A stretch of 64,000 bases of DNA from Escherichia coli (lineage in GTDB: Bacteria; Pseudomonadota; Gammaproteobacteria; Enterobacterales; Enterobacteriaceae). Shown here in pieces: positions 42,001 to 45,000 of this stretch. The stretch lies in NCBI RefSeq assembly GCF_003334385.1, contig NZ_QOWN01000001.1; one strand, given 5' to 3'. Position 1 is the stretch's first letter, and every line of letters starts with the position of its first letter. Made by a program: the position numbers.

Positions 42001-45000
42001 CTGACGCCGTTTATCTGGCTTGTTATCAGATGCCTTCATCCGTAATGTTAGCTGCGCACGCGACACGCCCAGAACACGGCTTACCGGAGCTATTCCTTGT
42101 CCGAAGGTAACAAGGGCACATGCGCTATCCATTTTCGCGATTGTGCGTACTCCACCGCTTCTTTGAGGATCTCAACTTCCATTGTTTTCTTGCCCAGTAA
42201 ACGCTGAAGCTGATTAATCTGCTTTATCGCAGCGGCCAGTTCAGAAGCAGGAACAACGTCTTCACCGGCAGCAACAGCAGTGAGGCTTCCTTCCAGGTAT
42301 TGTTTTTTCCACTTAAACAACAGGCTGGGCTGAATGCCATGCAAACGTGCCACGTGGGACACAGTCATGCCAGGCTCCATAGTCTGTTGAATAATTGCGA
42401 TTTTTTTTCTGAGGTGTTTTACGTTTACGCACCTCTTTTCCTAACAAAACGCCAGCAATCTCAAAATTAGAACTAGTGTTAGACATATATCCAAGCCTAC
42501 CTCTTATTTTAAGATACATCTACTGTCTGGTATTTCAGGGGGCCAGTCTAGTATTTCACTGTGTTGTATTGAATCTGTATTTTCTTCGCACCTCGTTTAT
42601 CTCATCTCTATAGACAATGCCATCAGATAACTCATACCCTTCAGCACAACGCTGTGTGTCGTTAATAATCCGTCGTATCCATTCTGTTACAGCATGCCTG
42701 ATAAATACCATCTGTAAGTTATTACCGTTTTAGATCTGATTATGAGCGAAAGCATTAATTCGCTCACAGAGCTTAAAACATCATTAACTTTCAGGAGTCA
42801 TCAACATGCCTAAATCTTACACACCAAACTGGTTTTTTACCGCTTTACTTGACAATCACATCAATCAAATGATGGCACGCTATTCCTGCCTGCGGGCCTT
42901 ACGCATGGATTTCTTCTACAGGAAAGATACGCCTGATTTCTTACAACCTGATCATCGCTGGCTTGAATTGCAGTTGCGTATGCTGCTGGAGCAGGTAGAA
43001 CAATTTGAAAATATCGTTGGTTTCTTCTGGGTGATTGAATGGACGGCTGATCATGGTTTTCATGCGCATGTCGTTTTCTGGATCGATCGTCAGAGGGTTA
43101 AAAAAATATATCCCTTTGCGGAGCGGATAGCGGAATGCTGGCAGGCAATTACGTATAACTGTGGTTCGGCGCACCGCTGTACATATCAGCCGCATTATGC
43201 ATACAACATCAACATTCCTGTGCGCCACAACGATCCTGAAAGCATCGATAATATTCGCGGTGCCCTGCATTATCTGGCGAAAGAAGAACAAAAAGACGGG
43301 CTGTGTGCCTACGGCTGCAATGAAGTTCCTGAACGTCCTGCTGCAGGGCGTCCTCGTAAGCCTCACTTCTGAAGCTTAAGGCCTGAGCCTCCGCTCCTGG
43401 AAACACTCCGTCGGTAAAAACTTACCGCATTGATTAATGATGTGAACTGAAGTCAACGGAGATCATTCATCCTGAACCTGAATCCGGTGTTCTGTTCCTT
43501 GCCGGTTACCGGATCTTCCCGTTCTGCTTCAGTTCTTCACTTATTCCATCAATCTCATCCGCAAGCCATAACACGTCAGCTCATTCACGGGCAGGACGCA
43601 CTGTGGGCTGCGCATAACGGAACATATCTTATGAATGCTATTCCTTATTTCGACTATAGCCTGGCACCCTTCTGGCCGTCTTATCAGAACAAAATCATCG
43701 GTATCCTTGAGCGTGCGCTGCGTGAGCAGTCCGGCTCCCGGATACGACGGATCCTGCTTCGTCTGCCATGTGAATATGACCGTACCTTCAGCAGCAGAAA
43801 GATCTGGTTCGGTATGGACTTTATCGAAACCGTCAGTGCGCTGATGAATGTAACCTCCGGACGTGATCTCTGCTGGCTCCTGACTCGTCATCCTGAAAAG
43901 CCGGAATACCACGTGGTGCTGTGCGTCAGACAGGAGTATTTCGATGGCTCTGAACTGGATCGGCTGATTCTTGATGCCTGGAGCAACGTACTGGGCTTCA
44001 TGTCACCGGGTGAAGCGGCACCGTACCAGAAGCAGATCACCCGGGATGTGGTGCTGGACAGTCGTTCACCGGACTGCGAAGAGATATTTCAAGCGCTGAT
44101 CTGGGCGTTCAGTGATTTCGCCCGCGATCGTCGTGGTGTACGCGATCCGGAAGCCCGTTACCTTGCCGGTAATCCCTGGTATCCGGTAGCAGGCCAGCTC
44201 TGAAAACTCCGTTCAGTAGATTCACCCGCATTTGCCCAACCTTCATAAATCTCACAGAGGACATTCTGACCATGTTGACCACAACAAGCCACGACAGCGT
44301 ATTGCTGCGTGCCGACGATCCCCTGATCGACATGAACTACATCACCAGTTTCACTGGCATGACAGATAAATGGTTTTACAAGCTGATCAGTGAAGGTCAT
44401 TTCCCTAAACCCATCAAACTGGGGCGCAGCAGCCGCTGGTACAAAAGTGAGGTGGAGCAGTGGATGCAGCAACGAATCGAGGAATCCCGGGGGGCAGCAG
44501 CATGAAACGTGTTGTAATGCCAGTACGCTGGCAATGTGCAAAATGCCAGCGCTGGTATTGTGGAACCCGGCCCTGCCCCTGGTGCTGGCGACATTTACGT
44601 TCATCTTCTTGCAGACATTCTCCAGTCAGCCTGCAGGTTATAGCTATTCCTGACTGATTCGTCATTCTATTCTTATTGATTATAACTGGCATTACACCGG
44701 TGCCGGAGTGTTTTTCTGTAAGTCTGCGCCGGTTCAGTAAATTAGAAAAGAAACATCTGTCAACGCCAAGATTGTTAGTCGTTACGCCTTATATCACTGG
44801 CGCTGACATTTATCTGTTTCAGTGAAGCATGCCCACAGATTGAGTTATTAAGTTGTGGAAGAACAGCTCTGCCCCGCCTGCTTCTCTCCTTTCAGAAGCC
44901 AGTATGTTGCCATGCCCCGTCTTAATGGTGAGCGCTGAACCATACCTGCTTTTTCCAGTAATAACAGGTAATAGCGGGCCTGGTAATCCGTTACCGCCAG

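What the first reader, a model, noticed from the sequence alone, without database searches (positions are those of the whole stretch)
44502..44657. Unannotated zinc-ribbon-like small ORF translationally coupled to alpA
Its ATG overlaps the alpA stop codon (ATGA), and the 51-aa product has four cysteines in CxxC…CxxC-like spacing. Small proteins of this kind are often missed and may act with AlpA in excision control.
Basis: seen in the sequence. Interest (0 to 1): 0.4.

Follow-up and report, generated by a model that had tools for sequence, protein, structure and literature searches.

The report
Overlooked zinc-ribbon mini-gene after alpA
The small reading frame that overlaps the end of alpA is a real, conserved gene for a roughly 30-residue basic, probably zinc-binding mini-protein that sits next to AlpA-type regulators in genomic islands of many enterobacteria, is missing from the reference annotation here, and has no known function.

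Summary
ATG 44502 overlaps the alpA stop (ATGA), and the 51-codon ORF ends at 44657.

The ORF alone is not beyond chance, because several overlapping ORFs lie here. Comparison shows a gene:
- In at least ten other enterobacterial genera, an ORF with its own ATG and ribosome-binding site lies just after alpA. It encodes (I/T)PxRWxCxxCxRxYxGxxPCPxC.
- Synonymous sites are saturated, while pN/pS is 0.35 in this frame. The other frames give above 1, or are full of stops.
- All nine distant relatives whose upstream gene could be read lie directly after a Phage_AlpA gene. In-frame AlpA fusions also occur.

Only the first 30 residues are constrained (W10, C12, C15, C25, C28). In E. coli the 21-residue tail varies by frameshifts and stops.

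The core is a stand-alone relative of Pfam Zn_ribbon_11 (PF11682): hhalign gives 92% probability. That domain also ends the DUF7828 proteins of the same islands. The window copy itself scores below the Pfam threshold.

RefSeq omits the ORF in the identical strain. GenBank has it as a hypothetical protein.

My best reading is a basic, nucleic-acid-binding zinc mini-protein made together with AlpA and acting with it. That function is inferred, not shown. Interest is modest.

The parts
44272..44505 (+). alpA: 77-aa AlpA-family winged-helix regulator/excisionase gene. Its stop TGA is at 44503-44505.
   Evidence: ORF list. Pfam Phage_AlpA PF05930 E 2.5e-10 and HTH_17 E 2.2e-5. AF2 gives pLDDT above 90 for residues 21-70, with the HTH, wing and C-terminal helix spanning residues 21-75. 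PGAP calls it 'helix-turn-helix transcriptional regulator' WP_000958492.1.
44489..44494 (+). G6 run, 7 nt upstream of the small ORF's ATG. It is a possible Shine-Dalgarno-like site. Changes in the length of this run fuse alpA and the small ORF in some E. coli genomes.
   Evidence: Sequence. The fusion proteins P0052 and P0053 read ...EESRGSSMKRVV..., the reading expected if the run loses two G (my reconstruction from the protein sequence and the window DNA). The run is not conserved in other E. coli copies, so it is not a programmed site.
44502..44591 (+). Conserved core of the small gene, codons 1-30 (MKRVVMPVRWQCAKCQRWYCGTRPCPWCWR). It is a Cys4 zinc-ribbon/knuckle domain. Inferred ligands: C12 (44535-44537), C15 (44544-44546), C25 (44574-44576), C28 (44583-44585).
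   Evidence: Cross-genus motif and ORFs. dN/dS 0.10-0.36 where estimable. Pooled pN/pS 0.35 and no stops. W10, C12, C15 and C28 are invariant, and R9, G21, C25 and P26 nearly so, in 26 sequences. Zn_ribbon_11 hits and hhalign at 91.8%. AF2 gives a block-mean pLDDT of 80-86 for residues 11-30.
44592..44657 (+). Lineage-specific C-terminal tail (HLRSSSCRHSPVSLQVIAIPD) plus the stop TGA at 44655-44657. It is not under protein-level constraint.
   Evidence: Frameshifts, stops and indels of 1, 11 and 26 nt occur in E. coli homologues. ORF lengths range from 30 to 86 codons. AF2 gives pLDDT of about 50.
44686..44716 (+). Terminator-like hairpin plus a T-run, 29 nt after the ORF stop. It lies inside a block of non-coding DNA (about 44658-44768) that is conserved among E. 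coli copies of the module.
   Evidence: Pattern scan and alignment A1. The fold is no more stable than shuffles, z = 0.16, so its role as a terminator is weakly supported.
42806..43372 (+). Inovirus Gp2 / YagK-YfjJ-type gene, the first member of the conserved order YagK/YfjJ - AlpA - zinc ribbon.
   Evidence: PGAP name. The same order, YagK_YfjJ_C (sometimes with a weak REP_ORF2-G2P hit), then Phage_AlpA, then the small gene, appears in distant loci. In L054 the YagK-type gene lies downstream instead.
43487..44203 (+). Hypothetical gene between the Gp2-like gene and alpA (PGAP start gives 190 aa).
   Evidence: ORF list and PGAP WP_000991575.1. Only a weak YagK_YfjJ_C match, E 0.078.

Best explanation
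Window 44502-44657 is a real protein-coding gene.

Its functional part is the first ~30 codons. They encode a very basic mini-protein (net charge +7) that is rich in aromatic residues. I read it as binding one zinc ion through C12, C15, C25 and C28. It is a stand-alone relative of the Zn_ribbon_11 (PF11682) domain.

I infer that it is transcribed with alpA. In E. coli it is probably translated by ribosomes that terminate at the overlapping alpA stop (ATGA), so the two proteins would be made together.

The most likely role is an accessory nucleic-acid-binding partner of the AlpA winged-helix protein. It would help AlpA bind or bend its DNA targets, or link AlpA to another factor. In that way it would take part in AlpA's control of island genes (excision, replication or transcription of the downstream operon).

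Shown: the anatomy; purifying selection on the peptide; homology to Zn_ribbon_11; fixed position after alpA; natural fusions.

Inferred: zinc binding; co-transcription and coupling; nucleic-acid binding; partnership with AlpA.
For: Anatomy.

Cross-genus ORFs with their own ATG and GAGG/GAGGAG site, 17 nt after the alpA stop or overlapping it (TGATG), in Citrobacter, Superficieibacter, Siccibacter, Yokenella, Tenebrionibacter, Hafnia and others.

Selection on the peptide:
- dN/dS is 0.10-0.36 in the named frame where dS was estimable, against pN/pS of about 1-3 in the shifted frames.
- The six-frame test on 16 sequences gives pN/pS 0.35 with 0 stops. The only comparable frame is the mirrored antisense one, which has 11 stops.
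- Cys codons switch between TGT and TGC while Cys is kept.

Family and position:
- A profile search of 1.84 billion representatives finds only 26 proteins. They include stand-alone proteins of 46-61 aa.
- All nine whose upstream gene could be read lie directly after a Phage_AlpA gene, at gaps of 2-400 nt. The cargo downstream differs.
- In-frame AlpA-ZR fusions exist: P0021 and P0052/P0053.

Domain:
- 8 of 12 members hit Zn_ribbon_11 at E <= 0.1, the best at 2.3e-7.
- hhalign against the C-terminal domain of the DUF7828 proteins gives 91.8% probability, E 7e-7.
- AF2 gives a beta-hairpin plus a helix, with a block-mean pLDDT of 80-86 over residues 11-30.
- All members are basic: net +5 to +10, pI 9.3-10.9.

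In an unselected sample anchored on the alpA 3' end, 37 of 48 distinct E. coli-type copies keep the start and all core cysteines.

AlpA-family proteins act as excisionases (PMC5148205).
Against: There is no expression data (RNA, ribosome profiling or peptide) for this ORF.

The window copy itself scores below the Pfam threshold (E 0.45).

In E. coli the module is decaying:
- About 28% of copies have a broken core and about 39% a broken alpA, with no sign that the two decay together.
- Per nucleotide, the core is disrupted at least as often as alpA.
- Within E. coli the excess of synonymous change is modest: 18 of 50 codon variants are synonymous, against 19% expected. That set was also pre-selected for intact cysteines.

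AF2 on an AlpA+ZR concatenation gives pTM 0.47 and no gain in confidence for the ZR part. It therefore gives no support for a defined complex.

The E. coli fusions arise from a homopolymer length change, and the metagenomic fusion is a single contig. Any of them could be a mutational or assembly accident.

Adjacency could reflect operon inheritance rather than physical partnership. In other genera the small gene is followed by two DUF7828-Zn_ribbon_11 genes, with which it might act instead.
Confidence: 0.55

Rival explanations
1. It acts as a micro-protein competitor or helper of the DUF7828-Zn_ribbon_11 proteins rather than of AlpA. It consists only of the domain that ends those larger island proteins. 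It would bind the same ligand (a DNA or RNA site, or a partner protein) and so tune or block their activity.
For: Homology to their C-terminal domain. In most non-E. coli loci the order is alpA - small ZR - DUF7828-ZR - DUF7828-ZR on one strand with short gaps. One relative (P0026) is a ZR-DUF7828 fusion.
Against: The small gene stays next to alpA even where the DUF7828 genes lie upstream of alpA (L003, L006). It also stays there where they are absent from the local module: this window, L054, L180 and L182. The small family has its own conserved features that the DUF7828 domain lacks: R9, the YCG motif, PCP, and a basic N-terminus.
Confidence: 0.15
2. In this window it is a functionless relic. 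The family was once a real gene, but in E. coli pathogenicity islands the alpA module is a decaying remnant. On this view the ORF is intact here only because too little time has passed, and it is not expressed or used.
For: The module is flanked by an IS3 pseudogene and by the pap operon, and it has lost its usual downstream genes. Many E. coli copies carry broken alpA or ZR with no correlation between the two. Tails vary freely. C15Y variants are widespread.
Against: Both alpA and the ZR core are intact here, with the ATGA overlap and the upstream G-run. 77% of distinct E. coli-type copies keep the core. Third-position variation is enriched: 19 variable sites against 9 and 11.
Confidence: 0.2
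3. The conservation belongs to a non-coding element (an RNA, a terminator/attenuator, or DNA sites for AlpA) and the ORF is incidental.
For: Among E. coli copies the DNA is as conserved after the ORF stop (44658-44768) as inside it. It includes a terminator-like hairpin. Indels that are not multiples of three occur in the tail.
Against: Across genera the DNA has diverged so far that blastn barely finds it, yet the peptide motif, start codon and frame persist. pN/pS is low only in the sense frame that has no stops. There is no Rfam match at E <= 1. The hairpin is no more stable than shuffles.
Confidence: 0.05
4. The zinc ribbon is normally made as a C-terminal extension of AlpA, by programmed frameshifting or transcriptional slippage at the G-run, not as a separate protein.
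For: The small frame is open upstream to 44460 and is the -1 frame of alpA. A G6 run lies just before the overlap. Fused versions exist.
Against: The G-run is not conserved among E. coli copies. In the genera with a 17-nt spacer, an in-frame stop lies directly before the small gene's ATG, which has its own Shine-Dalgarno site. There is no canonical X XXY YYZ slippery heptamer in the alpA frame (sequence).
Confidence: 0.05

Closest known systems
Pfam Zn_ribbon_11 (PF11682, 'Probable zinc-ribbon'): the C-terminal domain of the enterobacterial DUF7828 'putative zinc ribbon proteins'
   Same: It shares the W-x-C-x-x-C ... G ... C-x-x-C pattern with 9-10 residues between the knuckles. Relatives occur in the same genomic islands. 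Profile-profile probability is 91.8%. Several small-family members pass or approach the Pfam model. RefSeq names some 55-aa members 'putative zinc ribbon protein'.
   Different: It is stand-alone (30-61 aa) with no DUF7828 domain. It has its own conserved R-W, YCG and PCP residues and a basic N-terminus. It has a fixed position directly after alpA. The window copy itself is below the Pfam threshold (E 0.45). The Pfam family has no known function, and no paper in the searched library mentions it.
Ogr/Delta zinc-finger activators of phage P2 and satellite P4 (from my own knowledge, not tested beyond the Pfam scan)
   Same: They are small, basic, Cys4 zinc-binding proteins encoded by P2/P4-type mobile elements, and they act in transcription control. 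P4-type elements also carry an AlpA-family gene (Vis).
   Different: The cysteine spacing differs (about CxxC-x22-Cx4C, against CxxC-x9-CxxC here). The Pfam scan gives no match to that family. Ogr/Delta are not placed after the AlpA-type gene.
Generic zinc-ribbon and zinc-knuckle mini-proteins (rubredoxin-type knuckles; ribosomal proteins such as L33; zf-RanBP)
   Same: Two CxxC knuckles flank a short beta-hairpin. Pfam gives weak Rubredoxin and Zn_ribbon_RanBP hits among family members. The top, non-significant Foldseek hits are chains from ribosome structures and a zf-RanBP domain.
   Different: There is no significant sequence or fold match. In the model the second knuckle leads into a helix (residues 26-36), which is closer to a treble-clef arrangement. 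The model confidence is only moderate.
AlpA/Xis-type recombination directionality factors and their regulators (CP4-57 AlpA, CP4So AlpA, Pf4 XisF4)
   Same: The upstream partner gene belongs to this family. AlpA-type proteins act as excisionases and XisF4 also regulates transcription (PMC5148205, PMC7379572).
   Different: The text passages retrieved from those two papers do not mention a zinc-ribbon co-factor. The more distant AlpA genes in the genome scan (Gilliamella, Serratia, Pectobacterium and others) have no such ORF after them.

Membership tests
Pfam Zn_ribbon_11 (PF11682) | Significant match to the Pfam HMM | tested here: not met
   The window protein matches at i-Evalue 0.45 (residues 6-31 to model positions 2-27 of 37). 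At family level, 3 of 12 relatives reach E <= 0.001 and 8 of 12 reach E <= 0.1, the best at 2.3e-7. Precomputed hits for P0028 and P0031 are unmarked (E <= 1e-5).
Pfam Zn_ribbon_11 (PF11682) | Homology of the family profile to bona fide Zn_ribbon_11 domains (C-termini of DUF7828 proteins) | tested here: met
   hhalign of A3 against A4: probability 91.8%, E 7.3e-7, 43 aligned columns. The A4 sequences come from proteins of the type that matches DUF7828 at E 1.8e-29 and Zn_ribbon_11 at E 6.7e-14 (L014 example).
Pfam Zn_ribbon_11 (PF11682) | W-x-C-x-x-C ... G ... C-x-x-C cysteine pattern | tested here: met
   W10, C12, C15, G21, C25 and C28 are present in the window protein. W10, C12, C15 and C28 are invariant, and C25 and G21 are kept in at least 90% of 26 family members. 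The same columns are invariant in the DUF7828 domain alignment.
Zinc-binding protein (Cys4 zinc ribbon or knuckle) | Binds one Zn(II) through four cysteines | not testable with these tools
   This is inferred only, from the conserved CxxC-x9-CxxC pattern and the AF2 hairpin-plus-helix model with moderate confidence. AF2 does not model metal ions.
Translated small protein gene | Purifying selection on the encoded peptide in the named frame | tested here: met
   dN/dS is 0.10-0.36 where estimable. Pooled pN/pS is 0.35 with no stops in 16 sequences from different genera, while the other frames give above 1.1 or carry stops.
Translated small protein gene | Direct evidence of expression (transcript, ribosome footprints, peptide) | not testable with these tools
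   No expression data are available. The literature search for the peptide sequence found nothing.
alpA-coupled operon partner | Same strand, immediately downstream of a Phage_AlpA gene, across divergent relatives | tested here: met
   The ATGA overlap is present in all E. coli-type copies with both genes readable and a full-length alpA. The spacer is 17 nt, or the start overlaps the alpA stop (TGATG), in other genera. All nine distant relatives with a readable upstream gene follow a PF05930 gene.
alpA-coupled operon partner | Physical or functional interaction with AlpA | tested here: inconclusive
   Natural in-frame fusions exist. The AF2 model of the concatenated pair has pTM 0.47 with no confident docking. 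Decay of the two genes in E. coli is uncorrelated.

The most novel reading that the evidence does not exclude
The mini-protein is an obligate zinc-binding subunit of a two-part AlpA-type regulator/excisionase. On this reading, a whole subclade of enterobacterial AlpA proteins, with related DNA in more than half of complete E. coli genomes, works only as an AlpA-zinc-ribbon pair. That would be an unrecognised cofactor class for recombination directionality factors and island regulators.
Probability: 0.2. Interest if true: 0.55.

Novelty: new member of a known kind. Interest (0 to 1): 0.4.

Why it matters
DNA related to the 751-bp alpA / small-ORF query is found in 2973 of 5426 complete E. coli genomes, often in several copies. 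The small gene is absent from the RefSeq annotation of the identical strain. No paper in the searched library mentions it.

If it works with AlpA, studies of island excision and regulation that express or delete 'alpA' alone may have missed half of the unit. They may also have disrupted the small gene without noticing, because the two overlap by four bases.

The gene also gives a first handle on the Zn_ribbon_11 / DUF7828 proteins of enterobacterial islands, whose function is unknown. The minimal domain is only 30 residues and could be made synthetically for metal-binding and nucleic-acid-binding tests.

For annotation, the alignment built here could seed a family model, so that these 30-60-codon genes are called consistently.

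Tried and rejected
- **Rfam**, 40000-48000, E <= 1: no match.
- **NCBIfam, PHROGs and PADLOC** scans of the small protein and relatives: no family.
- **PDB sequence search** with the family profile: nothing below E 0.1.
- **Foldseek against PDB** with the AF2 model: best E 1.5, so no usable match.
- **AF2 of an AlpA+ZR concatenation**, to look for docking: pTM 0.47, uninformative.
- **RNA fold of the terminator-like hairpin**: no better than shuffles.
- **IMG/VR viral contigs**: one locus only, a near-identical E. coli-type copy. There is therefore no evidence that the gene belongs to an active phage or satellite.
- **Literature searches** for AlpA plus zinc ribbon, for the Pfam/DUF names and for the peptide itself: nothing relevant.
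- **K-12 CP4-44 region**: no homologue of the module. The other K-12 cryptic prophages were not checked.
- **Programmed frameshift or AlpA extension**: considered and rejected, because of in-frame stops and separate start sites in other genera.
- **Non-coding element**: considered and rejected for the core.
- **Co-decay of alpA and ZR in E. coli** as a test of partnership: no correlation (22/19/13/3), which is not informative either way.
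Full report
**1. What is in the sequence**

The window is a selC-associated pathogenicity island of uropathogenic E. 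coli.
- tRNA-Sec lies at 60028-60122 (-), with a tyrosine integrase at 58544-59728 (-).
- The pap operon starts with papI at 44848-45081 (-) and papB at 45495-45809.

Just upstream of papI lies a short backbone remnant:
- an inovirus-Gp2/YagK-type gene (42806-43372);
- a hypothetical gene (43487-44203);
- alpA (44272-44505; Pfam Phage_AlpA E 2.5e-10).

The reported ORF starts at ATG 44502, which overlaps the alpA stop as ATGA. It runs 51 codons to TGA 44655-44657. A G6 run lies 7 nt before the ATG. A weak terminator-like hairpin follows at 44686-44716.

The product has six cysteines. C12/C15 and C25/C28 form CxxC-x9-CxxC.

The ORF alone proves nothing. The same 500 bases carry several overlapping ORFs of 45-148 codons on both strands.

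**2. Annotation status**

A 100% identical RefSeq record (UPEC132) has no CDS here. PGAP does annotate a frameshifted 52-aa version in another strain (WP_000831911.1).

The exact 51-aa sequence exists in GenBank as a hypothetical protein (EFJ86506.1, EFK65358.1). Distant relatives in Serratia fonticola and Klebsiella michiganensis are named 'putative zinc ribbon protein' in RefSeq.

**3. Conservation within E. coli**

DNA related to the 751-bp alpA/ORF query occurs in 2973 of 5426 complete genomes, with a median of two places per genome.

Alignment of seven copies shows that the first ~90 nt of the ORF are well conserved. The rest carries 1-, 11- and 26-nt indels and new stops. Predicted proteins from public data share MKRVVMPVRWQCAKC(Q/R)RWYCGxxPCPWCWR and then diverge by frameshift.

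I took an unselected sample from metagenomes, anchored on a 20-mer inside the alpA 3' end.
- 37 of 48 distinct homologous sequences keep the start and all core cysteines.
- ORF lengths are 30, 37, 48, 50, 51, 57, 74 and 86 codons.
- Broken copies show C15Y, W10C, a 26-nt deletion, a nonsense codon or ATG changed to ATA.

In that sample alpA is intact in 35 of 57 copies and the core in 41 of 57, with no correlation between the two.

Among intact cores, variable sites favour third positions (19 against 9 and 11). 18 of 50 codon variants are synonymous, against 19% expected.

So in E. coli the constrained unit is 30 codons, the window's 21-residue tail is lineage-specific, and the module as a whole is often decaying.

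**4. Conservation across genera (the decisive evidence)**

A genome-wide scan with the AlpA protein returned 44 loci.

In the AlpA subclade closest to the window's protein, tblastn finds (I/T)PxRWxCxxCxRxYCGxxPCPxC(F/W)R immediately after alpA. This holds in Citrobacter, Superficieibacter, Siccibacter, Yokenella, Kosakonia, Tenebrionibacter, Rosenbergiella, Hafnia and others. blastn barely detects the DNA.

Most of these ORFs have their own ATG.
- One group has a 17-nt spacer with GAGG or GAGGAG and an in-frame stop just upstream.
- Another group overlaps the alpA stop as TGATG.
- Six of them end at the same length, 44 aa.
- Two loci lack a start (L016, L019) and two are degenerate (L017, L047).

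Nei-Gojobori analysis of the 25-codon core gives dN/dS of 0.10-0.36 in the pairs where dS could be estimated. Synonymous sites are saturated in the remaining pairs. The two shifted frames give pN/pS of about 1-3.

A six-frame test on 16 sequences, including the distant relatives, gives these results:

| Frame | pN/pS | Stops in 16 sequences |
|---|---|---|
| Sense frame of the ORF | 0.35 | 0 |
| Mirrored antisense frame | 0.44 | 11 |
| Remaining four frames | above 1.1 | 1 to 4 each |

**5. Family and fold**

A profile of 12 members, searched against 1.84 billion representatives, found only 26 proteins. They include stand-alone proteins of 46-61 aa from Citrobacter, Pseudocitrobacter, Serratia and Klebsiella.

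In the 26-sequence alignment, W10, C12, C15 and C28 are invariant. R9, G21, C25 and P26 are kept in at least 90%. C20 is not conserved in distant members, so C12, C15, C25 and C28 are the likely ligands.

Domain evidence:
- Pfam: 8 of 12 members hit Zn_ribbon_11 (PF11682) at E <= 0.1, the best at 2.3e-7. The window copy reaches only E 0.45.
- The same domain ends the DUF7828 'putative zinc ribbon proteins' that are encoded in tandem in these islands.
- hhalign between the two alignments gives 91.8% probability, E 7e-7.
- AF2 models a hairpin (9-11, 18-20) and a helix (26-36), with block-mean pLDDT 80-86 over residues 11-30 and a disordered tail.
- There is no significant PDB match by sequence or by fold.

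All members are strongly basic, with net charge +5 to +10.

**6. Link to alpA**

Every distant relative whose upstream gene could be read (nine proteins, eleven places) lies directly after a Phage_AlpA gene. It is usually preceded by a YagK/YfjJ (Gp2-like) gene.

The genes downstream vary: DUF7828 genes, an MmeI-type restriction enzyme, a KAP NTPase, SIR2, HNH. In this window the downstream genes are the pap operon.

Where the DUF7828 genes have moved upstream of alpA (L003, L006), the small gene still follows alpA.

In-frame AlpA-ZR fusions exist in a metagenomic contig. They also exist in E. coli, apparently through a length change in the G-run.

More distant AlpA genes (Gilliamella, Serratia, Pectobacterium and others) have no such ORF after them.

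**7. How it most likely works**

Shown: a selected, basic Cys4 peptide is encoded in a fixed position after alpA.

Inferred:
- it binds zinc;
- it is co-transcribed with alpA and, in E. coli, is translationally coupled to it through ATGA;
- it binds nucleic acid;
- it assists AlpA.

AlpA's family acts as excisionases, and a related excisionase (XisF4) also regulates transcription (PMC5148205, PMC7379572).

AF2 on a concatenated pair did not dock the domains (pTM 0.47), so the partnership rests on synteny and fusions only.

Rivals:
- a micro-protein modulator of the DUF7828-Zn_ribbon_11 paralogues;
- a functionless relic in this particular decayed island;
- a non-coding element (largely excluded for the core);
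- an AlpA extension by frameshift (excluded by stops and separate start sites in other genera).

**8. Verdict**

Three corrections apply:
- the gene is effectively 30 codons;
- it belongs to a Pfam domain family of unknown function;
- its role with AlpA in excision is untested.

It is a new, mostly unannotated member of a known kind (small zinc-ribbon proteins, Zn_ribbon_11-like). It is widespread but of modest surprise.

Noticed in passing
window 44658-44768: Non-coding DNA after the ORF stop (TGATTCGTCATTCCATTCTTATTGATTATAACTGGCATTACACCGGTGC...) is as conserved among E. coli copies as alpA itself. Homology to other islands ends near 44768, just before papI. In other islands this block precedes a UCP030791-family gene, so it may be that gene's promoter or leader. 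A minus-strand promoter-like site (44692-44664) also lies inside it.
   Followed up: partly
window 44489-44494; proteins P0052, P0053: The G6 run just before the alpA/ORF overlap appears to vary in length between genomes. The fused proteins read as if two G were lost, giving a single 127-128-aa AlpA-zinc-ribbon protein. It is unclear whether this is real slippage or sequencing error.
   Followed up: partly
L014 2969-3855; L003 1612-2417; L006 390-1179; L053 3266-4053: Related islands carry two tandem, often overlapping genes for DUF7828 + Zn_ribbon_11 proteins (~130-160 aa) of unknown function. Their C-terminal domain is homologous to the small protein. No literature was found on either Pfam family.
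   Followed up: partly
L180 3036-5183; L182 3410-5177; L185 4186-5109; L054 5394-6186: The gene set YagK/YfjJ, AlpA and zinc ribbon is followed by different cargo in different genomes (MmeI-type restriction-modification, KAP NTPase, SIR2, HNH, and here the pap operon). This suggests it marks the edge of a variable cargo or defence hotspot in these islands.
   Followed up: no
L017 1678-1815; L047 464-553: In Entomohabitans and Serratia microhaemolytica the post-alpA frame reads WQ(C/R)EHDKRR(Y/*)C(D)..KPCP.C, with the second cysteine of the first knuckle lost and stops present. These are probably pseudogenised copies.
   Followed up: no
L185 2501-2938 (P0026): A 145-aa protein has the small zinc ribbon at its N-terminus joined to a DUF7828 domain. 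This is the reverse order of the usual DUF7828-Zn_ribbon_11 proteins. It may be a read-through of two adjacent genes.
   Followed up: no
window 41419-42380 (-): A frameshifted IS3-family transposase (two overlapping ORFs) lies directly upstream of the Gp2-like gene. PGAP marks it as a pseudogene in the identical strain. It bounds the backbone remnant on the left.
   Followed up: no
window 34586-40809: A pgtABC-pgtP phosphoglycerate transport locus (known from Salmonella) lies inside this E. coli selC island, next to the alpA module.
   Followed up: no
L009 (Collinsella sp. MAG) and L021 (Chryseobacterium sp. assembly): Enterobacterial alpA-zinc-ribbon modules (76-95% AlpA identity to the window protein) appear in assemblies labelled as an actinobacterium and a bacteroidete. 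Contamination or mis-binning is the most likely cause.
   Followed up: no
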